From the NCBI GenBank assembly GCA_965371605.1, contig CBDUZB010000001.1, forward strand, positions 1 to 34,489: a stretch of DNA of 34,489 nt, read 5' to 3'. The notes beneath the pieces were generated by a model, which saw only the letters and a program-made list of their open reading frames with translations, ran no database searches and was not told the DNA's origin. The translations under genes and the position numbers were made by a program. This DNA comes from an uncultured bacterium (GTDB taxonomy: Bacteria > CBDUZB01 > JAGLHV01). Numbering within the stretch: the stretch's first letter is position 1; each line of letters starts with the position of its first letter. This document shows, one piece after another, positions 2,085 to 32,276 of the stretch.

Positions 2085-3653
2085 TTATTTAGTTACCTGT
2101 ATAAGCTCCTTCTCCCGGCTTTGCCTAATTATTATTAATTGCACACTCAAATTAAAAATGTTATTTATGAACCAGTACAATACCAACCCTGACGGAAATT
2201 TTAAAAATAAAACAACAAACAAAACCGGCATAAAAACTACCATTTTTGCCTGCTGAGGATCCGTAGTTGTCATTTTCTGCTGTAAAAACATAACGATACC
2301 CATAAGTACAGGCAAAATATATAACGGATCATAGGAAGAAAGATCCTTTATCCAGAAAATAAAGGGTGCAAATCTTAATTCCACCGTATTCCGTAAAGTA
2401 GTAAATAGCGCCCAAAAAATGGGAATTTGTAGAATCATAGGTAAACAACCGCCAAAAGGATTGACCTTTCTGGTTTTATAAAGACTCATCATTTCTACAT
2501 TTAGCCGCTTAGGATCTTCTTTATACTTTTCTCTCAACATATTTATTTGCGGTTGTATCCTTTTTAACGATTGCATAGATTTAAAACTTTTCATCGTAAG
2601 CGGCAATAGAACAACCTGTAAAACCATTGTCAAGAACACTATTGACCAACCAAAATTACCGGTAATTTTGTAGAAAAATTTTAAAATAAACAAAACCCCT
2701 TTTCCAATGCTTCCGAAAAATCCAAATTCTACCGTTTCTTCTAACTTTTTTTCTGCCTTTTTCAACCGCTCATACTCTTTGGGGCCTAAATACATATGCA
2801 CCTTGATGTCTTTGTTTTCCCCCGGCCTCAGATTTAAAGAAGTGCTTAACTTTATCTGAGGAATAATTTCCTCTTTTTTTATGTTTGCTTTGGAAAAAAT
2901 ATTTTCTTCCGGAATTATAGCAATTAAAAAATAACTATTATCCACTCCTATCCATTTAATGTCTCCGGTATAGTCGTTGCTTTCTCCTTCTTTTATTTTT
3001 ATCTTTTTTAATAACTTTCCTTCGTGAAATAATAAAGGTTTGATTCCTTGTACACCCCGCCCTTTTTTTATCGCTACATCTTCCGGCCCTACCCCTGCTT
3101 TCCATCCCAGGGTAAATGGTTCTATTCTTTTTTCCACCCCTGAGTTATTAGTTATTTTCATATCTAGTTCTATTAAATAACTATCCCTTTTGAATTTATA
3201 TGTTTTACTAATGGATATGTCCCCGTCCGGAGGATTATATGTAAAGGTAATGCTTCCTTCCGGATAAGACTCATCTAATATTAGATTTTCCTTGTTTACA
3301 GTAAAAATAGCCTCTTTGTAAAAATCCACCGGGGCAGCTGTCTGTTCTTCTAAAAATAAACTGGTCCAGTCTCCTTTTTCTTTTATGCTCCAACCATTTA
3401 TTCCACCACCCAGTGTTGATAAGGAAGCTAAGATTTTATCTGTTTCGACAATTATTTCTTTTCCCTTAGCCCCTACCTTTATTTCCTCCACCTTTTCTAT
3501 TTCCTTATCTCTAATGGTTACCGTCTCTTTTTTTTGCTCCGTTTTTACTGCACTTTCCTTAATCATCACTTTTTTTGTAGGAGAAAAAAACTTAACCCAG
3601 ACACTCAGAACCAACATTGACAAAATTATAGCAACTACTGCTCTTTTTTCCAT
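2085..3653 (-). CDS. yidC: membrane protein insertase YidC (long, diderm-type with periplasmic domain)
   Basis: 522 aa with an N-terminal TM, a large soluble domain and a C-terminal multi-TM core (NPFGGCLPMILQIPIFWALF). Canonical position after rnpA-yidD. Confidence 0.93.
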   Translation of the reverse strand: MEKRAVVAIILSMLVLSVWVKFFSPTKKVMIKESAVKTEQKKETVTIRDKEIEKVEEIKVGAKGKEIIVETDKILASLSTLGGGINGWSIKEKGDWTSLFLEEQTAAPVDFYKEAIFTVNKENLILDESYPEGSITFTYNPPDGDISISKTYKFKRDSYLIELDMKITNNSGVEKRIEPFTLGWKAGVGPEDVAIKKGRGVQGIKPLLFHEGKLLKKIKIKEGESNDYTGDIKWIGVDNSYFLIAIIPEENIFSKANIKKEEIIPQIKLSTSLNLRPGENKDIKVHMYLGPKEYERLKKAEKKLEETVEFGFFGSIGKGVLFILKFFYKITGNFGWSIVFLTMVLQVVLLPLTMKSFKSMQSLKRIQPQINMLREKYKEDPKRLNVEMMSLYKTRKVNPFGGCLPMILQIPIFWALFTTLRNTVELRFAPFIFWIKDLSSYDPLYILPVLMGIVMFLQQKMTTTDPQQAKMVVFMPVLFVVLFLKFPSGLVLYWFINNIFNLSVQLIIIRQSREKELIQVTK

Positions 3654-3689: not shown

Positions 3690-3905
3690 TCATCCCTTGT
3701 CCAGCGGATCATATCCTCCCGGAGAAAAAGGATGACACTTAACAATCCGTTTTATTCCTAAAAAAAACCCTTTCATCACCCCGTATTTTTGTACTGCTTC
3801 AGATGTATATGCCGAGCATGTTGGATAAAAACGGCAGGTTTTAGGCCAAAAAGAGGATACTTTTTGATATATTTTGATTATTTTTAAAACAATTTTTCTA
3901 CTCAT
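3690..3905 (-). CDS. yidD: membrane protein insertion efficiency factor YidD
   Basis: 71 aa with the [19 protein letters not shown]...[12 protein letters not shown] signature of the YidD/DUF37 family. Lies between rnpA and yidC. Confidence 0.9.
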
Positions 3906-3939: not shown

Positions 3940-4335
3940 TTAAATTATATTTGCTTTTTTCCACAGGTCAAAAACATCTTTTTCCATTTCTTTATATTCC
4001 ATTTCCTGATATTTAATCTCTTTCATATTTAACCTGGCAATCAGAATCATATCCACTACTACAACTAATTTTTCTTTATTTAACCTAAAAACTTCCCTAA
4101 TCAATCTTTTAATCCGGTTTCTTTTTACGGCGTTCCCTATTTTCTTTTTTACAACAATTCCTATCCGCGAATTTAACGGTTTTTCCCCGCTTCCTTTTCC
4201 GGATAAAGAATTTCTTCCTTTCACATACATTACTATTTGCTTATTGGCATACGATTCTTTTCCCCGAAAAACAGCATCAAACTCTTTTCTTAACTTTAGG
4301 TGTTCTTCTCTTTTGAAAGATCTTTCTTTCTTCAT
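3940..4335 (-). CDS. rnpA: ribonuclease P protein component
   Basis: 131-aa basic protein with an RNR-type motif (KKKIGNAVKRNRIKRLIRE). Located immediately downstream of rpmH. Confidence 0.85.
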   Translation of the reverse strand: MKKERSFKREEHLKLRKEFDAVFRGKESYANKQIVMYVKGRNSLSGKGSGEKPLNSRIGIVVKKKIGNAVKRNRIKRLIREVFRLNKEKLVVVVDMILIARLNMKEIKYQEMEYKEMEKDVFDLWKKANII

Positions 4336-4352: not shown

Positions 4353-4487
4353 TTATGCCGTTAATTTTTTTCTTCCCTTTTTTCTTCTCCGGCTTATTAT
4401 TTCTTGTCCTTCTTTTGTAATCATTCTTTTTCTAAATCAGTGGTTCTTTTTTCTTTTCCTTGTGTTTGGCTGAAACGTCCTTTTCAT
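4353..4487 (-). CDS. rpmH: 50S ribosomal protein L34, interrupted by an in-frame TGA at codon 17 (conserved Gly position)
   Basis: Manual reverse-strand translation gives [16 protein letters not shown][TGA][30 protein letters not shown]. It is colinear, gap-free and of the right length (44 codons) for the L34 family, with canonical synteny rpmH-rnpA. The SD GGGAG and a consensus promoter lie upstream. Not in the ORF track because it is under 60 aa. Confidence 0.85.
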
Positions 4488-4538
4488 CTTCTTCTCCCAA
4501 AATACTAAAATTTTTATAATCCCTGGAATTTGAGCCCG

Positions 4539-4567
4539 ATTATACTTTATCGGCCATCCTTTGTCAA
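4539..4567 (-). promoter_or_regulatory. rpmH promoter P1, perfect sigma70 consensus
   Basis: The minus strand reads TTGACA (4567-4562), a 17-nt spacer, then TATAAT (4544-4539), about 50 nt upstream of the rpmH ATG. Confidence 0.6.
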
Positions 4568-4929: not shown

Positions 4930-4963
4930 CTTATCCACAATTGTTAGTAAGTTTGTGGATAAG
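4930..4963. promoter_or_regulatory. inverted pair of perfect DnaA boxes (dnaA autoregulation and/or oriC element)
   Basis: TTATCCACA at 4931-4939 and TGTGGATAA at 4954-4962, both 9/9 to the consensus. They form an 11-bp inverted repeat, CTTATCCACAA / TTGTGGATAAG, separated by 12 nt. Confidence 0.75.
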
Positions 4964-5058: not shown

Positions 5059-6426
5059 ATGCTTACACCCATGGACAAATTATGGCCTCAAATCTTAGAC
5101 TCTATCAAAAAGGACATAAACGAAGAAAGTTTTTCTTTATGGTTCAGTCCATTAAAGCCGTTATCCTATGACAAAGAAACTCTTCTTATTCAGGTACCAA
5201 ATAAATTTTTTTCCGATTGGTTACAGCAGCATTATTTGGAAAAATTGGAAACTATTTTAACCGCTCTTGTTGACAAAAAAATTATAGTCCGTTTTTCAAT
5301 TTCAAATGCCTCTTCCTCCCATTCCCCTGATGTAGTTGATGCCCCAATAAAAGAAACTGTGGTACAAACACCTGTTTTTAAAGATAATTCTTTTAATCCG
5401 AAGAATACTTTTTCCAGTTTTGTTGTCGGTCCTTCCAATCGTTTTGCCCAGGCTGCTGCCGAAGCAGTAGCAAAATCCCCCGGCCGGGCGTATAATCCAT
5501 TATTTTTTTATGGAGGAGTAGGGCTTGGAAAAACTCATTTACTACATGCAATTGGATATTACATAAAAGAACAAAACCCTCGGGCAAATATTTGTTACCT
5601 AAGTAGTGAACAATTTACAAATGAAATGATAGATTCCCTTCGTAATGACCGTATGGGTAAATTTCATCAAAAATTCAGGGGTTTAGACGCCCTATTAATT
5701 GACGATATTCAGTTTTTAGCCGGAAAGGAGAGTACCCAAGAAATTTTCTTTCACACGTTCAATGCTCTCTATGATGCTCATAAACAGATTGTTATTACTT
5801 CCGATGCCGTTCCTAAAGAAATTCCTACTATTGAAGAACGCCTTCGTTCCCGGTTTGAATGGGGAGTTATTGCCGATATTCAACCACCGGATTTAGAAAC
5901 CAGAATAGCAATTTTAAGGAAAAAAGCTGAAAATGAAAGGCTTTTTGTCCCGGAGGATGTCATCCTCTTTATTGCCTCTCAAATAAAGTCAAATATTAGA
6001 AAATTAGAAGGTTCTTTAATTCGAATAGTAGCTTTTGCTTCCCTTACCGGAAGTGATATTACCGTAGAAAAAACGAAAGAAATACTGAAAGATATTATTA
6101 CTAAAGAAGAAATTTTAATTCCAATTACTCTTACTTCTATACAGAAAGTAATTTGCAGACATTTTAATTTGGCCGTTGCGGATATAAAAAGCAAGAAAAG
6201 GACTGATGCTATTGCTTTTCCCCGTCAAATTGCTATGTACCTGGCTCGTTCACTTACAGAATTATCTACTACGGAAATAGGTGATTTCTTTGGAAAAAGA
6301 GACCACACAACAGTAATGTATGCCTGTGAAAAAATAAAAAATAAATTATGTAAAGATCCTTATTTTACTGCTTTGGTTAATAAAATTATTAATGAAGTAA
6401 AAACAGGTAAAAGTTCTCCTGTATAA
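5059..6426 (+). CDS. dnaA: chromosomal replication initiator DnaA
   Basis: AAA+ Walker A GGVGLGKTHLLHAIG and a C-terminal DNA-binding HTH (AFPRQIAMYLARSLT, DHTTVMYA). The start is placed at ATG 5059 (MLTPMDKLW, AGGAA upstream) rather than the track's TTG at 5014. ATG 5071 is also possible. Confidence 0.93.
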   Translation: MLTPMDKLWPQILDSIKKDINEESFSLWFSPLKPLSYDKETLLIQVPNKFFSDWLQQHYLEKLETILTALVDKKIIVRFSISNASSSHSPDVVDAPIKETVVQTPVFKDNSFNPKNTFSSFVVGPSNRFAQAAAEAVAKSPGRAYNPLFFYGGVGLGKTHLLHAIGYYIKEQNPRANICYLSSEQFTNEMIDSLRNDRMGKFHQKFRGLDALLIDDIQFLAGKESTQEIFFHTFNALYDAHKQIVITSDAVPKEIPTIEERLRSRFEWGVIADIQPPDLETRIAILRKKAENERLFVPEDVILFIASQIKSNIRKLEGSLIRIVAFASLTGSDITVEKTKEILKDIITKEEILIPITLTSIQKVICRHFNLAVADIKSKKRTDAIAFPRQIAMYLARSLTELSTTEIGDFFGKRDHTTVMYACEKIKNKLCKDPYFTALVNKIINEVKTGKSSPV

Positions 6427-6682
6427 CATGTGGATAGTAATAAAATAACTTTCTCTTTTTGTTAATAAGTTTAATTTTCCTTTTTTTTTCTTAGTAGTGT
6501 TAATATTTTTTTATTTCTTTCCTCAGGATATTAGACTTTTTATTTTTGTTTTTTCTTTTATTTTTTATGACATATTTTAAACTTTTTTTTTTTACTAACA
6601 TACTAACACCCCTTATTATGATGATGATTAATTCTTTATATTAGTATTTAATAATAACCCAGCTGTAAAAAAGGAGAAACAA
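6427..6682. other. candidate oriC / DNA-unwinding region in the dnaA-dnaN spacer
   Basis: Near-consensus DnaA box TGTGGATAG at 6429-6437 and a weaker TGTTAATAA at 6460-6468, followed by about 200 bp of very AT-rich DNA with long T tracts. The dnaA-dnaN spacer is a common oriC location. Confidence 0.45.
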
Positions 6683-7824: not shown

Positions 7825-8109
7825 ATGGGGTTTTCTTCCGCAAGGGAAATTATAAAAGTAATAAAAAGAAGAATAGGATTAAAAGAAGAAAATTATAAGA
7901 TTCATCGGATATGGAAGGAAGTATCCGGGGAAATCGCTCAGCATGCTCAAGTTATTAAAGTACAGCAAGAAAAGATATGGGTAACAGTAGAGTCACCGGT
8001 CTATCTTCAGGAAATTTTTCTTAGGAAAAAAGAACTTGTAGAAAAAATAAATAAAGCTATTGGGGAAGAAAAAATAAAAGATATTAAATTAACAATAAAA
8101 AACATTTGA
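7825..8109 (+). CDS. DUF721 domain protein (DciA-like)
   Basis: 94 aa with the pattern W..V.G.IA.H......Q..K.WV.VES.V.LQE characteristic of DUF721. It sits between dnaN and gyrB, where recF or DUF721 genes usually lie. Confidence 0.6.
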   Translation: MGFSSAREIIKVIKRRIGLKEENYKIHRIWKEVSGEIAQHAQVIKVQQEKIWVTVESPVYLQEIFLRKKELVEKINKAIGEEKIKDIKLTIKNI

Positions 8110-10539
<2,430 letters not shown>

Positions 10540-10602
10540 ATTTTAGGTAGTGTCAAAAATAAAACATGTTTAAAATTAAAAATTTTAAAGGAGGAAAGAA
10601 TT

Positions 10603-11607: not shown

Positions 11608-11680
11608 GGGGCAGTAGCTCAGTTGGGAGAGTGCACCCCTCGCACGGGTGAGGCCGCGGGTTCGACTCCCGCCTGCTCCA
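11608..11680 (+). tRNA. tRNA-Ala (anticodon CGC)
   Basis: Manual cloverleaf fold of 73 nt: acceptor GGGGCAG/CTGCTCC with the G3:U70 Ala identity pair, D arm GCTC..GAGT, anticodon stem CACCC/GGGTG with loop CTCGCAC, and T arm GCGGG-TTCGACT-CCCGC. No encoded CCA. Confidence 0.9.
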
Positions 11681-11709
11681 CAAAAAAATTTGTTTTAAAG
11701 GAAAAAGAA

Positions 11710-13958: not shown

Positions 13959-13988
13959 TTGACAGATGGAATAGAAATATTGTAGAAT
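13959..13988 (+). promoter_or_regulatory. candidate promoter for the membrane protein gene
   Basis: TTGACA (13959-13964), an 18-nt spacer, then TAGAAT (13983-13988) with TG immediately upstream. Confidence 0.35.
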
Positions 13989-14098
13989 ACCTCCTTTGAA
14001 GAATAATCTTTAAGAAAGGGTTTTTTTGAGAAAGGGGGAAGTGTCCTAAAAGCAAAATTTTAAAAGAATAAAGAAATTAATTTGAAAGGAGGAAGAAA

Positions 14099-18270: not shown

Positions 18271-18299
18271 AAGTATGCAAAGAAAAAAATAATTGATAT

Positions 18300-18371
18300 T
18301 CCCTGGTAGCTCAATGGTGGAGCGAGCGACTGTTAATCGCTAGGTTGTAGGTTCGAGTCCTACCCGGGGAG
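18300..18371 (+). tRNA. tRNA-Asn (anticodon GTT)
   Basis: Manual cloverleaf fold of 72 nt: acceptor TCCCTGG/CCGGGGA, D arm GCTC-AATGGTG-GAGC, anticodon stem AGCGA/TCGCT with loop CTGTTAA, T arm GTAGG-TTCGAGT-CCTAC and discriminator G. Confidence 0.9.
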
Positions 18372-18470
18372 TTTTTCTTTTTCTTGAAGGAATTTTATTC
18401 CCTCAAGAAAAAGAAACTCTTCAGTCTCAGGCGAGAGACAATGTGAGTTTATCCTCTTTCTTTTTCCTCC
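18359..18470 (+). repeat. att-like composite repeat, copy 1 (tRNA-Asn 3' end + hairpin + conserved arm)
   Basis: Core CCTACCCGGGGAG, then a 16/17-bp hairpin at 18374-18416, then CTCTTCAGTCTCAGGCGAGAGACAATGTGAG..TCCTCTTTC, which is shared with copies 2 and 3. Confidence 0.7.
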
Positions 18471-18593
18471 ACAATTAACAATTTTTAAAATAACGTTAAA
18501 TATATTCCTTTCTGAAAAAATCTATTACATATTTTTTGATAAGATAAATCTATTACGAAATATTAGCAATTTAATTGTTCATATCTTTTTACC

Positions 18594-18622
18594 TTGACAC
18601 TTAAATAAAATAAAAATATAAT
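18594..18622 (+). promoter_or_regulatory. perfect sigma70 consensus promoter inside the island leader
   Basis: TTGACA (18594-18599), a 17-nt spacer, then TATAAT (18617-18622). There is no ORF in the next ~200 nt. Confidence 0.5.
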
Positions 18623-18770
18623 TAAAAACAATAAGAAAACTTTTGTGTAAAAAATTATAGATTATGAACTTTGTTTATTAATTATTATTCAAAAAAATGG
18701 GTCAATAAATTAAAACTTTAAGCAATGTTTCGTATATTCCACAAGTTTTTAATAAAATTTTATTATAGCC

Positions 18771-18799
18771 TTGACATTCAATAATGAATAATGTAAAAT
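18771..18799 (+). promoter_or_regulatory. abiEi-abiEii promoter
   Basis: TTGACA (18771-18776), a 17-nt spacer, then TAAAAT (18794-18799), about 30 nt upstream of the abiEi ATG. Tandem AATAATG repeats lie in the spacer and a 16-bp palindrome TAATAAAATTTTATTA lies just upstream. Confidence 0.55.
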
Positions 18800-18830
18800 A
18801 TGTCTGTAATAATAATGTGTGAGGTTATTT

Positions 18831-19631
18831 ATGGATAAAAATTATACATTCAAAGGATTGGGACCAAAAGAGACAGAATTAGTTGCTCGTTTGTCTTATG
18901 AGAAGAAAACTATTATATCTATAGAGGAAATTGATAGTTTTTTACCTTCCGAGTATAAGTATCGCAATCAATTAGTATACAATCTAAAACAGAAAAAAAT
19001 ACTTACCTCAATTAAGCGAGGTTTTTACATATTTACGCCGATAGAGTCATTTCCATCAGGTGTAAGAGCTAACGAATTATTAATTCCTTCGGTATTTTTC
19101 CCAAGAAAAAATTATTACATTGGGTATTCCACAATGTTCAATTACTACGGTTTTAGCAACCAACTTTTCCAGACTGTTTATGTCCTTAATACATCTTTAT
19201 TTGAAGAACGGGTGATTTGCGGTGTCACCTATAAATTTCTAAAAATTTCCGATAAACGGATGTATGGTATCGAGGTAATAAAAGTGCAAAATACTGATGT
19301 TAGAGTCAGTTCCAAAGAAAGGACAATAATTGATCTTATTTATTTCAGTAAGCCGGTTGGCGGTATTGCTTCAGCAAGTGGAATACTAGAAAAAATAGTT
19401 GAACAAAAGAATTGTGATATAAATATGTTGATTGAATATTCAGCCCGTTTCCCGAATGTAACCGTGCGCAAACGCATCGGAGTTGTTTTGGGAAATCTCG
19501 GCATATCAAAATCTGTTTTACGCCCTTTAATCAAAAGCATAGAAGATACCTCCATCAGCTCGTTGACTGGATCACGTAAAGGAACTTTGAATAAAATATG
19601 GAGAGTAATCGTTAATGATACACAAAAATAA
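18831..19631 (+). CDS. abiEi: AbiEi-family antitoxin / transcriptional regulator (type IV TA, abortive infection)
   Basis: About 266 aa with an N-terminal wHTH-like region and the overall pattern of the AbiEi (COG5340) family. It overlaps the downstream DUF1814 gene by 17 nt. The start is placed at ATG 18831 (SD GAGG) rather than the track's GTG at 18819. Confidence 0.75.
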   Translation: MDKNYTFKGLGPKETELVARLSYEKKTIISIEEIDSFLPSEYKYRNQLVYNLKQKKILTSIKRGFYIFTPIESFPSGVRANELLIPSVFFPRKNYYIGYSTMFNYYGFSNQLFQTVYVLNTSLFEERVICGVTYKFLKISDKRMYGIEVIKVQNTDVRVSSKERTIIDLIYFSKPVGGIASASGILEKIVEQKNCDINMLIEYSARFPNVTVRKRIGVVLGNLGISKSVLRPLIKSIEDTSISSLTGSRKGTLNKIWRVIVNDTQK

Positions 19632-20514
19632 GGAAAACTTTCTTCGGGTGATAAATCAAGTTGCTATGCAGACAGGTTTCCTTTTATCCTTGGTTGAGAA
19701 AGACTATTATTTGACCCTTATTCTTTCCCGATTACATGAATTATGCCCGGACCTTGTTTTTAAGGGTGGAACGTGCTTAAACAAGATTTATTTTTCCTAT
19801 TATCGTTTAAGCGAAGACTTGGATTTTAGCATGCGTCTTCCTACATATACTGCAACGCGTGGCATACGAAGGAAAAGTATTCAGATAGTTAAAGACAACA
19901 TAGAGTCTTTTGCCAAGAAGATAGATATGCGAATTGAAGATACCGAAAGTACAGGACGAAATGAATCTAGGCAGTATGTCTATCATTTTCTTTATCAATC
20001 AGTAATTTTGCCTATTGAAGCAAAAATTAAATTTGAAATAGGACTTAGATTTGATCCTATCTGTCCGGTAGAAAAGAATAAAGTTAAGCATAAATTTATG
20101 CATCCTTTTACGGGTAATATTTTGTTTGATGGTGGTGAAGTGAATTGTTTTGCGTTAAAAGAGCTAATTGCTGAAAAATTGCGGGCGGGGGCAATTCGCA
20201 AAATCATTGCTCCGCGGGATTTCTATGATATTGACTTTGTTATCAGGAATGATATTAACCTTATGGATCCAGAAATCCAACACTTATTTCAGAAAAAACT
20301 TGAAGAAGACGGCGCAGATACCGATATTACCAAGTATTGCATCAATCTTGGAAGGGGAGATGAAGAAATAAAGGATATGCGATCGCGTATCAAAGAAGAA
20401 CTCCTTGAAGTGCTTATTCCTGATGAACGCAATAATTTTGATATTGATTTGGCGATTGCAAGAATAAACAGTGTATTTAGAAATATAAATAAAAATAAAG
20501 GGGATGGGGGTTAA
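19615..20514 (+). CDS. abiEii: AbiEii/AbiGii-family nucleotidyltransferase toxin (DUF1814)
   Basis: 299 aa with FKGGTCLNKIY...RLSEDLDF, matching the nucleotidyltransferase motif of the family. Operonic with abiEi. Confidence 0.8.
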   Translation: MIHKNKENFLRVINQVAMQTGFLLSLVEKDYYLTLILSRLHELCPDLVFKGGTCLNKIYFSYYRLSEDLDFSMRLPTYTATRGIRRKSIQIVKDNIESFAKKIDMRIEDTESTGRNESRQYVYHFLYQSVILPIEAKIKFEIGLRFDPICPVEKNKVKHKFMHPFTGNILFDGGEVNCFALKELIAEKLRAGAIRKIIAPRDFYDIDFVIRNDINLMDPEIQHLFQKKLEEDGADTDITKYCINLGRGDEEIKDMRSRIKEELLEVLIPDERNNFDIDLAIARINSVFRNINKNKGDGG

Positions 20515-22115: not shown

Positions 22116-22172
22116 GTGAAGCTCGGATTAAATTGAAAAACGGAAAAGAATCTTTGAAGATGAGTTTTACAT

Positions 22173-23033
22173 ATGTTGAAGCTGAAAAAATTAAGTAAAA
22201 TTTATGGAGATGGAATAAAAGCTCTTGATGAAGTAGATCTAGAGGTTAAAGAAGGTGAGTTTGTGGTTATTTTAGGACCGAGTGGTGCAGGAAAATCTAC
22301 ATTTTTGAGATGTATTAACAGACTTATTGAGCCGACAAAGGGAAAGATTTTTTTAAACGGGGAAGAAATTACTTCTCTTTGCGGAAAAAAGTTACATAAG
22401 ATGAGGCAGAAAATAGGAATGATATTCCAGCATTTCAATTTGGTAAAGAGACTTTCCGTACTGCAAAATGTTTTGTCCGGAAGATTGGGAGATGTTTCCA
22501 CTGTACGCAGTCTTTTTTATTCTTTTTGTAACGAAGATATTCAATTCGCCTTAGAGTGTTTGGACAGAGTGAATTTAAAAGGTTATGCCTCAAAAAGAGC
22601 TGATACCTTAAGCGGAGGGCAACAACAGAGGGTAGCTATTGCCCGAGCCCTGGCTCAAAGGCCAAGGGTTATTTTAGCTGATGAGCCTATGGCCAGCCTT
22701 GATCCACGCACAGCAAGGGTAATTATGGATTTACTTAAAAAGATAAACAGGGAAGAGAAAATTATTGTTATCGTTAATTTGCATGTAGTGGAGTTAGCCA
22801 AAGAATATGCTGACCGCATTATCGGACTAACAAAAGGGAAGGTTGTTTTTGATGGGACCCCATCTTTATTAGATGAGCATTTTAAGACCATTTACTATGA
22901 AGAAGAAACGAGAGTGGTTAATGCAGATATGATTGTGTCTAATAAGGCAAAACGGGTTTGGGTATTGGAATCAGGAAAGATTGCTTATGCCCGCTGGCAA
23001 ATAGGAGGTGATGGCAAAAGAGAAAAAAAGTAG
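22173..23033 (+). CDS. phnC: phosphonate ABC transporter ATP-binding protein
   Basis: Walker A GPSGAGKST, signature LSGGQQQR, Walker B ILADEP, and the PhnC-like segment FLRCINRLIEPTKG. It carries a ~30-aa C-terminal extension relative to typical PhnC. Confidence 0.88.
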   Translation: MLKLKKLSKIYGDGIKALDEVDLEVKEGEFVVILGPSGAGKSTFLRCINRLIEPTKGKIFLNGEEITSLCGKKLHKMRQKIGMIFQHFNLVKRLSVLQNVLSGRLGDVSTVRSLFYSFCNEDIQFALECLDRVNLKGYASKRADTLSGGQQQRVAIARALAQRPRVILADEPMASLDPRTARVIMDLLKKINREEKIIVIVNLHVVELAKEYADRIIGLTKGKVVFDGTPSLLDEHFKTIYYEEETRVVNADMIVSNKAKRVWVLESGKIAYARWQIGGDGKREKK

Positions 23034-24843: not shown

Positions 24844-25262
24844 TCAGGGAAGAACGGTTTGAAATAATTGCTATATCCCGCAAAGAGGTTATTCTCCCTT
24901 TGGGAGAGAAAGTTCGTGAGTGTTTGGAAGTAAAGGTAATAAAGCAAAATACCGCATTGGTTATGATGCAGGCAATAGATTCGGTAGAAAAAGAAATTTT
25001 TAATTTGGGAGAAGTTTTGGTTAGTGAAGCTGAGGTAGAAATTAATGGGGAGATGGGGTATTCTCAGATTTTAGGAGATGATACCGAGAAGGCTTTGATA
25101 GGAGCGATTCTGGATGCAGTTTGTGAGATAAAGCATTTTCTTAAAGAAAAGGTAATAAAAATGTTAAATCAGGAAAAAATTTATTATAAAAAAGAGAAAG
25201 CTCAAGAGTACGCAAAAATAAAATCCACAAAAGTAGAATTTGAGGCTATGGCGAAAAAATGA
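24840..25262 (+). CDS. phnG: C-P lyase core complex subunit PhnG
   Basis: About 140 aa that is PhnG-like (R..EIIA......L....V......V.Q.TALVMMQA.DSV....FNLGEVLV.EAEV). ATGA start/stop overlap with phnE. The track start at 24813 is probably too long. Confidence 0.82.
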   Translation: MIREERFEIIAISRKEVILPLGEKVRECLEVKVIKQNTALVMMQAIDSVEKEIFNLGEVLVSEAEVEINGEMGYSQILGDDTEKALIGAILDAVCEIKHFLKEKVIKMLNQEKIYYKKEKAQEYAKIKSTKVEFEAMAKK

Positions 25263-25870
25263 AAGAGACAAAGTTTGATACGATATTTGATTCCCAGAAA
25301 ATTTTCCGCATTCTTTTAGATGCCTTTGCTCATCCGGGAAAAGTGGTTAAGATTTCCGACTTAAAAATCACGCCTCCCTCAAGTATTAGTAAGATTTCTG
25401 CAGGAGTCCTATTTACCCTGCTTGATCTTGAAGTGGGGTTTGCGGTGAGTGCTTCAGACAAAGAACAAAGGGAAGAAATAGAGGAATATTTTATTATAAA
25501 TACAGGAAGCAAATTAAAAAATTTAGAGTCTGCCGATTTTATTTTGGTGTTTGGAGAATTCCCTCAACTTGAGAAGATGAAAAAAGGGAGTTTGGAGTAT
25601 CCTGACGAAGGGGCAACGGTAGTTTATAGTGTAGAGGAAGTTAATGAAAATTTATCGGGAGTAGATTCTGTAAACTTAACTTTAACCGGGCCGGGAATTA
25701 ACGGGAAAAGAAAGTTGTCACTGAAAGGATTAAAGAAGCAAGAGTTTATAAAAATTATGGAAATAAATAAAGAATTTCCCTTGGGGATAGATTTCGTGTT
25801 TATGGATAGAAAAGGAAAATTTTTTGCCCTTCCGCGTTCTACAAAAATAATAGAAGTTAAGGAGATTTAG
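25259..25870 (+). CDS. phnH: C-P lyase core complex subunit PhnH
   Basis: 203 aa with FDSQKIFRILLDAFAHPGK, an N-terminus typical of PhnH. ATGA overlap with phnG. Confidence 0.85.
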   Translation: MKETKFDTIFDSQKIFRILLDAFAHPGKVVKISDLKITPPSSISKISAGVLFTLLDLEVGFAVSASDKEQREEIEEYFIINTGSKLKNLESADFILVFGEFPQLEKMKKGSLEYPDEGATVVYSVEEVNENLSGVDSVNLTLTGPGINGKRKLSLKGLKKQEFIKIMEINKEFPLGIDFVFMDRKGKFFALPRSTKIIEVKEI

Positions 25871-32006: not shown

Positions 32007-32198
32007 TTGAAAACAATGAAATATTCAGACACGATGGAAGAAGATTATGTGAAAAAATCCTTAAAGTGGGTAGAAAAGAATTATATAAAATTCAGGAAAA
32101 TATTTATCAATAATTTAGACTTCTGCAAAATAGCCTTTTTACATTTATTGTCATTCCTGCGGAAGCAGGAAGCTATTGATATTTTAAGCACATTATAG
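32007..32198 (+). CDS. hypothetical small protein (questionable)
   Basis: 63-codon ORF (TTG start; internal ATG at 32016) with no recognisable family. Its 3' end is built from a palindromic element, which argues against real coding. Confidence 0.2.
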   Translation: MKTMKYSDTMEEDYVKKSLKWVEKNYIKFRKIFINNLDFCKIAFLHLLSFLRKQEAIDILSTL

Positions 32199-32276
32199 AT
32201 TCTGCATCAAGTGTGGAATGACTGAATGTGTTATTTTGCACAACTCTTATCAATAATTAAGAAAGGAGATGAAAAA

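What the first reader, a model, noticed from the sequence alone, without database searches (positions are those of the whole stretch)
4353..4487. rpmH (ribosomal protein L34) carries an in-frame TGA exactly at the invariant glycine of the HGFR motif
The gene is missing from the ORF track because it is under 60 aa. The reverse strand 4487->4353 reads [49 protein letters not shown]. That is a full-length, gap-free match to the L34 pattern MKRTFQP..RKR...HGFR.RM.T..G..(V/I)(L/I).RRR.KGRK.L, in the canonical slot upstream of rnpA. Codon 17 (4439-4437) is TGA where L34 proteins have Gly. Homology continues in frame 0 after the TGA, so a frameshift does not explain it. The gene keeps a perfect TTGACA-17-TATAAT promoter and a GGGAG SD, so it does not look like a decaying pseudogene. 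TGA is a genuine stop elsewhere in the window, for example in the ATGA start/stop overlaps at phnE/phnG, phnG/phnH and phnK/phnL. Roughly 9,000 codons of conserved genes here contain no internal TGA, so a genome-wide UGA=Gly code (table 25, Gracilibacteria/Absconditabacteria) is unlikely. I see no SECIS-like hairpin in the A-rich sequence downstream. Three options remain: a single-base consensus error (GGA->TGA), a real nonsense allele giving a truncated or split L34, or site-specific UGA read-through or recoding in a ribosomal protein gene. The last would be novel.
Basis: partly seen in the sequence, partly recalled or inferred. Interest (0 to 1): 0.75.

Follow-up and report, generated by a model that had tools for sequence, protein, structure and literature searches.

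The report
Sequencing error in ribosomal gene rpmH
The stop codon inside this ribosomal protein L34 gene is almost certainly a base error in this one assembly, because every other assembly of the same organism and all its relatives read an ordinary glycine codon there.

Summary
Window 4487->4353 (- strand) encodes a full-length L34 with TGA at codon 17, where L34 proteins have an invariant Gly. It sits behind a perfect TTGACA-17-TATAAT promoter and a GGGAG SD, upstream of rnpA. It is not recoding. Three independent public assemblies of the same organism (identical RnpA and YidD, 99.2-99.9% DNA identity) all read GGA. So do or similar the sister species (GGA, GGT) and 48/48 other rpmH genes fetched (GGN). 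Over about 23 kb the window differs from its nearest twin assembly at only 11 positions. Eight of these are G:C->T:A transversions packed into three clusters of 38 bp or less. One cluster is the three changes inside rpmH (G17*, S23I, A29E), and all eight are window-only where a second assembly was available to check. The other three differences are transitions. That clustering was never reached in 200,000 random placements. TGA is a normal stop here (8 of 35 genes; no other internal TGA in about 10,100 codons). No hairpin follows the TGA, and the window has no tRNA(UCA) or tRNA-Sec. Best reading: a consensus error from low-coverage or low-quality reads (about 0.85). A real private nonsense allele is possible (about 0.12). 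Programmed recoding is about 0.02.

The parts
4353..4487 (-). rpmH (ribosomal protein L34), 44 codons plus TAA, interrupted at codon 17 in this assembly only
   Evidence: Translation. Pfam PF00468 E=2.3e-21 with Gly restored. Intact orthologues in L045/L047, L046, L048, L002 and L003.
4437..4439 (-). In-frame TGA at the invariant Gly17. The + strand base 4439 is A here and C in every other assembly (GGA)
   Evidence: C>A at 4439 relative to L045, L046 and L048. L002 has GGA and L003 has GGT.
4402..4439 (.). Cluster 1 of window-private G:C->T:A transversions (4402 G>T = A29E; 4420 C>A = S23I; 4439 C>A = G17*). Read here as a 38-bp patch of erroneous consensus
   Evidence: All three derived states are absent from 3 conspecific assemblies and 2 sister species.
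4539..4567 (-). Sigma-70-type promoter TTGACA-17-TATAAT of rpmH, conserved in the sister species
   Evidence: 12/12 match. Alignment.
4494..4498 (-). Shine-Dalgarno GGGAG, 6 nt upstream of the ATG
   Evidence: Read from the sequence. GGAG is conserved in L002 and L003.
13972..14004 (.). Cluster 2 of G:C->T:A transversions (13972 G>T, 13973 C>A, 14004 G>T), intergenic after recR. Same signature as the rpmH patch
   Evidence: window against ERZ23498918 scaffold_415. Only one comparison assembly was available, so the direction of change is not confirmed.
22165..22191 (.). Cluster 3 of window-private G>T transversions (22165 upstream of the ABC-ATPase gene; 22191 inside it, V7L)
   Evidence: Private against two independent samples, L133 and L134. 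The variant protein is not on record anywhere.

Best explanation
The TGA is a wrong base in this particular assembly and not a feature of the organism. The real codon is GGA (Gly), and the real gene encodes an ordinary 44-aa L34, [44 protein letters not shown]. The error belongs to a 38-bp patch with three wrong bases. That patch is one of at least three such patches in the window, all made only of G->T / C->A substitutions. The likely cause (inferred, not shown) is that this low-abundance organism was covered by very few reads at these spots, so low-quality read stretches or damaged templates set the consensus. G->T is a typical four-colour Illumina miscall and also the typical product of oxidised guanine in library preparation.
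For: (1) Three independent assemblies of the same species read GGA at codon 17. They were found through exact RnpA/YidD protein identity: ENA ERZ23498918 scaffold_181, ENA ERZ25746724 NODE_5859 and Logan SRR22302362. (2) The sister species L002 (89% DnaA) has GGA and L003 (83%) has GGT. Eight more distant relatives have GGN, and 48/48 distinct rpmH genes in all fetched loci have Gly. (3) The window and ERZ23498918 are 99.92-100% identical over window 940-23941, with 11 differences in all. Eight are G:C->T:A transversions in three clusters spanning 38, 33 and 27 bp, and three are transitions. (4) Eight pairs of differences lie within 40 bp of each other. None of 200,000 random placements reached that number; the maximum was 6. 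(5) The spectrum is abnormal. The clustered sites are 8/8 G>T or C>A, against 7/35 for the remaining substitutions between assemblies, of which 23/35 are transitions (Fisher p = 4e-5). (6) Cluster 3 is also private against a second independent sample (L134). (7) All three rpmH changes alter the protein, while the flanking RnpA and YidD proteins are 100% identical. (8) Conspecific contigs carry coverage tags of 3.7-4.4x, so the organism is rare in such samples. [quoted passage not shown] C>A/G>T artefacts arise from 8-oxoG during shearing, most often as CCG>CAG (PMC3616734), and the TGA-creating change is CCG>CAG on the + strand.
Against: No reads or coverage for the window's own assembly could be inspected, so the error is inferred from comparison and not observed. 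Only 1 of the 8 sites has the full CCG>CAG context. Clusters 1 and 2 mix G>T and C>A on one strand, which a single damaged template strand would not produce, so the exact physical cause stays open. One pair of transitions (1911, 1939) is also only 28 bp apart, so some clustering may reflect real recombination patches. Cluster 2 was compared with only one other assembly.
Confidence: 0.85

Rival explanations
1. It is a real, very recent private allele. The strain captured in this assembly carries a true mutation cluster in rpmH (G17*, S23I, A29E), for example from an oxidative-damage or MutY/MutM-type mutator background. It therefore makes only a 16-aa stub, or no L34, and survives with a growth defect.
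For: All private changes are G:C->T:A, which is also the spectrum of unrepaired 8-oxoG in vivo (established knowledge; mechanism described in PMC3616734). L34 is dispensable in B. subtilis and is among the non-essential ribosomal proteins, with a severe 70S-formation and growth defect that Mg2+ can suppress (bioRxiv 10.1101/300103). No reads were available to rule it out.
Against: A mutator would scatter changes across the genome and would not place 8 of them in three patches of 38 bp or less (0/200,000 simulations). The promoter, SD, start, stop and reading frame are untouched and identical to those of the intact alleles. Three of three changes being non-synonymous in one of the most conserved small proteins, in a genome otherwise 99.9% identical to its twin, does not fit a lineage that persisted long enough to dominate a population consensus. 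No other assembly carries the allele.
Confidence: 0.12
2. It is programmed recoding of UGA in rpmH: site-specific read-through, selenocysteine insertion, or Gly insertion by a suppressor tRNA. This would yield full-length L34 from the TGA-containing gene.
For: Homology continues in frame across the TGA, and the expression signals are intact. UGA=Gly exists in nature as code 25 in Gracilibacteria/Absconditabacteria (PMC8629427, listed).
Against: A programmed site would be conserved, yet genomes 99.2-99.9% identical have GGA, as do all relatives. No hairpin follows the UGA. TGA ends 8 of 35 genes, and there is no other in-frame TGA in about 10,100 codons. The window has no tRNA with a UCA anticodon and no tRNA-Sec. 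The TGA comes together with two other private damaging substitutions within 38 bp. From general knowledge, a U after the UGA is not a leaky context.
Confidence: 0.02
3. It is a decaying pseudogene, made redundant by a second intact rpmH elsewhere in the genome.
For: There are three non-synonymous changes in 135 nt, including a nonsense codon.
Against: The changes are private to one assembly of a species whose other assemblies have the intact gene at the same locus. There are no indels, the signals are intact, and the window has no second copy. The same substitution signature occurs in intergenic DNA and in an unrelated gene.
Confidence: 0.01

Closest known systems
G>T / C>A sequencing artefacts: 8-oxoguanine damage during library preparation (Costello et al. 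2013, PMC3616734) and G/T channel confusion in four-colour Illumina base calling (Dohm et al. 2008, PMC2532726)
   Same: The changes are exclusively G:C->T:A. The TGA-creating change is CCG>CAG. The changes are confined to one data set and absent from independent data on the same organism.
   Different: Those artefacts are normally low-allele-fraction events that a consensus outvotes. Here they reached the consensus, which requires very low local coverage (inferred). Seven of the eight sites lack the CCG context, and G>T and C>A are mixed within a cluster.
Genetic code 25 (UGA = Gly) of Gracilibacteria/Absconditabacteria
   Same: A UGA stands exactly where a Gly is expected.
   Different: In code 25 UGA is never a stop and appears at Gly positions throughout the proteome. 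Here it ends 8 of 35 genes and appears in frame once in about 10,100 codons. Conspecifics have GGA.
Bacterial selenocysteine insertion (UGA plus a downstream SECIS hairpin)
   Same: An in-frame UGA in an otherwise intact, expressed gene.
   Different: There is no hairpin downstream. The position is Gly, not Cys/Sec, in all homologues. The UGA is not conserved even within the species.
rpmH null mutants of Bacillus subtilis (L34 non-essential; Mg2+-suppressible 70S defect; bioRxiv 10.1101/300103 and work cited there)
   Same: They show that a cell can live without L34, so a real nonsense allele is not impossible.
   Different: Those are laboratory deletions with a severe growth defect. Nothing here shows that the environmental strain lacks L34.

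Membership tests
Ribosomal protein L34 (rpmH, Pfam PF00468) | Full-length match to the 44-position L34 profile | tested here: met
   Positions 1-44 of 44, E=2.3e-21, 75.9 bits (cut-off 25) with Gly at codon 17.
Ribosomal protein L34 (rpmH, Pfam PF00468) | Conserved position directly upstream of rnpA, near dnaA | tested here: met
   Order rpmH-rnpA-yidD-yidC on the - strand, with dnaA divergent. The order is the same in L002, L003 and L045.
Ribosomal protein L34 (rpmH, Pfam PF00468) | Uninterrupted reading frame | tested here: not met
   TGA at codon 17 in the window. The feature is met in all three conspecific assemblies, so the organism's gene is a normal member and only the window's copy of the sequence fails.
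Genome-wide UGA=Gly code (table 25) | TGA not used as a terminator, and in-frame TGA common at conserved Gly positions | tested here: not met
   TGA ends 8 of 35 genes. There is one internal TGA in about 10,100 codons.
Genome-wide UGA=Gly code (table 25) | A tRNA-Gly with anticodon UCA | not testable with these tools
   The window holds only tRNA-Ala(CGC) and tRNA-Asn(GTT). The rest of the genome was not available.
Selenocysteine recoding (bacterial SECIS) | A stable stem-loop shortly downstream of the UGA | tested here: not met
   MFE -5.5 kcal/mol, z = -1.3, and the only helix is 4 bp far downstream.
Selenocysteine recoding (bacterial SECIS) | UGA, or Cys, conserved at the site in orthologues | tested here: not met
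   GGN (Gly) in 48/48 rpmH genes and in all conspecifics.
Selenocysteine recoding (bacterial SECIS) | selA/selB/selC/selD present in the genome | not testable with these tools
   Only a 34.5-kb window was available. It has no tRNA-Sec.
Programmed stop-codon read-through | The stop codon and its context conserved among close relatives | tested here: not met
   The stop is absent from genomes 99.2-99.9% identical.
Assembly or sequencing artefact | Variant private to one assembly and contradicted by independent assemblies of the same organism | tested here: met
Assembly or sequencing artefact | Non-biological pattern: tight clustering and a single substitution class | tested here: met
   Eight of eight are G:C->T:A in three patches of 38 bp or less. 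0/200,000 simulations reach the clustering. Fisher p = 4e-5 against the other substitutions.
Assembly or sequencing artefact | Low depth or low base quality at the site in the raw reads | not testable with these tools
   No reads were available. The window's own record was not found in the indexed collections.

The most novel reading that the evidence does not exclude
The TGA is real in this strain and full-length L34 is still made, by near-cognate read-through or a suppressor tRNA. That would be a natural case of a ribosomal protein gene depending on stop-codon suppression. A more modest version is a free-living environmental strain that has truly lost L34.
Probability: 0.03. Interest if true: 0.6.

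Novelty: not a real feature. Interest (0 to 1): 0.05.

Why it matters
It matters mainly as a caution. A single wrong base in a low-coverage metagenome assembly produced what looks like recoding in a universal ribosomal protein gene. It also removed rpmH from gene calls, which affects completeness and marker-gene statistics for this MAG. The practical lesson is the signature: clustered, assembly-private G:C->T:A changes can be detected without reads by comparing near-identical public assemblies. If the allele were real, it would be a modest curiosity, the natural loss of a dispensable ribosomal protein. Only confirmed suppression would be of broad interest.

Tried and rejected
(1) Genome-wide UGA=Gly was rejected: TGA ends 8 of 35 genes and there is one internal TGA in about 10,100 codons.

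(2) Selenocysteine was rejected: no downstream hairpin, Gly in all homologues, and no tRNA-Sec in the window.

(3) A frameshift or indel was rejected: the alignment with L002 and L003 is gap-free through the gene.

(4) A second rpmH copy in the window was not found.

(5) I scanned JGI metagenome contigs for either allele with a 28-nt pattern that left the first codon base free. It gave 0 hits, so it adds no evidence either way.

(6) An RnpA-based scan of metagenome contigs returned only distant relatives (41% identity or less), useful only as background for the invariant Gly.

(7) I tried to identify the window's own record and coverage through its variant proteins. Nothing was on record, and the 203-aa protein encoded at 25259-25870 also gave no exact match.

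(8) I considered attributing all eight errors specifically to 8-oxoG. Only 1 of 8 sites is in the CCG context and the strands are mixed, so I leave the physical cause as low-coverage or low-quality consensus.

(9) The closest GTDB relative, L001 (95% DnaA), could not be used because its contig has no rpmH in the 921 nt upstream of the homologous region.

(10) The Rfam gathering-threshold scan found only the two tRNAs.

Full report
OBSERVATION. The reverse strand of window 4487->4353 reads [43 protein letters not shown], with TGA at 4439-4437. With Gly at codon 17 the peptide matches Pfam Ribosomal_L34 over all 44 profile positions (E = 2.3e-21). The neighbours are the canonical ones: rnpA (3940-4335), yidD (3690-3905) and yidC (2085-3653) downstream on the same strand. 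dnaA, dnaN, dciA and gyrB run divergently on the + strand. The promoter TTGACA-17-TATAAT is a 12/12 match at 4567->4539, and GGGAG sits 6 nt before the ATG. In 35 genes of the window the stops are TAA 19, TAG 8 and TGA 8, and the rpmH TGA is the only internal stop in about 10,100 codons. The 93 nt from the TGA onward fold no better than shuffles (-5.5 kcal/mol, z = -1.3). The window's only tRNAs are Ala(CGC) and Asn(GTT).

RELATIVES. A DnaA-based scan of one genome per GTDB species found an uncultured lineage. Its MAGs are variously labelled Clostridia, Elusimicrobiota or just 'bacterium', with DnaA identities of 95, 89, 83 and about 63%. At rpmH codon 17, L002 (89%) has GGA, L003 (83%) has GGT, and eight more distant members have GGT or GGC. 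The promoter, SD, start, stop and frame align without gaps between the window, L002 and L003.

THE SAME ORGANISM, ASSEMBLED INDEPENDENTLY. Exact-sequence look-ups of the adjacent RnpA and YidD proteins returned three other assemblies:
- ENA ERZ23498918 scaffold_181 (38 kb)
- ENA ERZ25746724 NODE_5859 (7.6 kb, coverage tag 3.7)
- Logan SRR22302362 (1.3 kb)

All three read AAC CAC GGA TTT and encode [44 protein letters not shown]. The window differs from them at three positions in the 135-nt gene. These are G17* (GGA->TGA), S23I (AGT->ATT) and A29E (GCA->GAA), and in each case the window's state is absent from the conspecifics and from both sister species.

HOW UNUSUAL THE PATCH IS. I extended the comparison with further look-ups. 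Against ERZ23498918 (scaffold_181 plus scaffold_415) the window aligns without gaps over 940-23941, with 11 differences in all:
- 1911 C>T and 1939 A>G
- 4402 G>T, 4420 C>A and 4439 C>A
- 13972 G>T, 13973 C>A and 14004 G>T
- 19364 C>T
- 22165 G>T and 22191 G>T

Eight of the eleven are G:C->T:A transversions, and they sit in three patches spanning 38, 33 and 27 bp. The other three are transitions. Eight pairs of differences lie within 40 bp of each other, and none of 200,000 random placements of 11 sites reached that number; the maximum was 6. The 22165/22191 pair is also contradicted by an independent sample (ERZ25746724 NODE_14676, L134), whereas the sites that separate that sample from the others are transitions. 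Among the 35 remaining substitutions between the window and the other assemblies, 23 are transitions and 7 are G>T or C>A. For the clustered sites the figure is 8 of 8 (Fisher p = 4e-5). The three patches fall in a ribosomal gene, in intergenic DNA and at the 5' end of an ABC-ATPase gene, so they ignore function. The variant ABC protein (V7L) is not on record in the 153-billion-gene index.

INTERPRETATION. A programmed recoding site must be a heritable, conserved feature. This TGA is absent from genomes 99.2-99.9% identical to the window and from every relative. It also arrives together with two other damaging private substitutions within 38 bp. The same odd signature, short patches of pure G:C->T:A change, recurs elsewhere in the same contig. 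The economical explanation is that the window's consensus is wrong at these patches. Conspecific contigs carry coverage tags of 3.7-4.4x, so the organism is rare in such samples. Local depth of one or two reads is therefore plausible, though I could not see the window's own reads. G>T is among the most frequent four-colour Illumina miscalls because G and T share a laser (PMC2532726). C>A/G>T is also the hallmark of guanine oxidation during shearing, most often as CCG>CAG (PMC3616734). The TGA-creating change is CCG>CAG on the + strand, but the other seven sites are not in that context, and G>T and C>A are mixed within patches. I therefore commit to 'erroneous consensus from low-coverage or low-quality sequence' and not to one chemistry. 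A comparable patch (three A/T differences in 28 bp at the very start of a 4.4x contig, L136 against window 32124-32151) shows that such noise is not unique to the window's assembly.

RIVALS. A real private allele cannot be excluded without reads. L34 is dispensable in B. subtilis, at the cost of a severe 70S-formation and growth defect (bioRxiv 10.1101/300103), and unrepaired 8-oxoG in vivo gives the same substitution class. But a mutator scatters changes instead of concentrating them in patches of 38 bp or less. A lineage carrying a nonsense codon plus two further amino-acid changes in L34, yet otherwise 99.9% identical to its twin, is also unlikely to dominate a population consensus. I give this 0.12. 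Recoding (read-through, Sec, or Gly suppression) gets 0.02, and a redundant pseudogene 0.01.

COMPARISON WITH KNOWN SYSTEMS. The gene is an ordinary member of the L34 family, and only this copy of the sequence fails the intact-frame criterion. It fails the defining features of code 25 (TGA is a stop here), of bacterial Sec insertion (no SECIS, no conservation) and of programmed read-through (no conservation). It meets the two testable criteria of an assembly artefact: it is private to one assembly, and it shows a non-biological clustering and spectrum. The third criterion, low depth or quality in the reads, could not be tested.

VERDICT. The feature is best regarded as not real. Interest is 0.05. 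The most novel reading still open is that the TGA is real and suppressed, or that L34 is truly lost (probability about 0.03).

Noticed in passing
window 13972-14004 and 22165-22191: There are two further short patches of G:C->T:A transversions relative to near-identical assemblies: GC->TA at 13972-13973 plus G>T at 14004 (intergenic after recR), and G>T at 22165 and 22191 (the latter gives V7L in an ABC ATPase). They are probably consensus errors like the rpmH patch, so other genes of this assembly may carry similar silent damage.
   Followed up: yes
L136 1-61 = window 32124-32151: Three A/T differences lie within 28 bp at the extreme start of a 4.4x-coverage contig (ERZ25746724 NODE_95501). 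The rest of that contig is identical to the window. The direction of change is unknown, because the only other assembly (L137) starts at 32221. This looks like contig-end noise in a low-coverage assembly.
   Followed up: partly
L001 1-921: The closest GTDB relative (95% DnaA; JAGLYT010000220.1, a 3.1-kb contig) has no rpmH upstream of dnaA. Its first 921 nt are C/T-rich (G only 10%) and match nothing in any related locus. Homology to the window starts only at window 4615. This could be a chimeric contig end or a rearrangement.
   Followed up: partly
window 4931-4939 (+) and 4954-4962 (-); GC skew sign change near 6000: Two perfect DnaA boxes (TTATCCACA) in inverted orientation lie 15 bp apart in the rpmH-dnaA intergenic region. 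A one-mismatch box lies at 6429-6437, just after dnaA, and the GC skew changes sign around 6 kb. The window therefore very likely spans the replication origin.
   Followed up: partly
window 11608-11681 and 11623: tRNA-Ala(CGC) overlaps the first 59 nt of the longest dnaX ORF (TTG start at 11623, also the start called in ERZ23498918). The true dnaX start is probably further downstream.
   Followed up: no
window 18299-20514: An AbiEi/AbiEii (type IV toxin-antitoxin / abortive-infection) gene pair at 18819-20514 sits about 450 bp downstream of tRNA-Asn(GTT) (18299-18372), in a stretch of lower GC. It may be a small integrated island.
   Followed up: no
window 10532-10586: In ERZ23498918 the assembly breaks here: scaffold_181 ends at window 10586 and scaffold_415 starts at 10532, a 55-bp overlap typical of a k-mer graph end. 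The window bridges the break, so it comes from a different assembly run or sample.
   Followed up: no
window 2085-3653, 7825-8109; loci L002-L012: MAGs of this lineage are labelled inconsistently in public records (Clostridia, Elusimicrobiota, 'bacterium'). The window encodes a YidC with the long periplasmic domain and a DciA, features more typical of diderm, non-Bacillota lineages. The 'Clostridia' label is doubtful.
   Followed up: no
L040 (JBHHZW010000002.1): A Bacteroidota MAG contig returned by the DnaA scan has exactly the window's length (34,489 nt). It shares no sequence with the window (no megablast hit), so this is a coincidence and not the window's source.
   Followed up: yes
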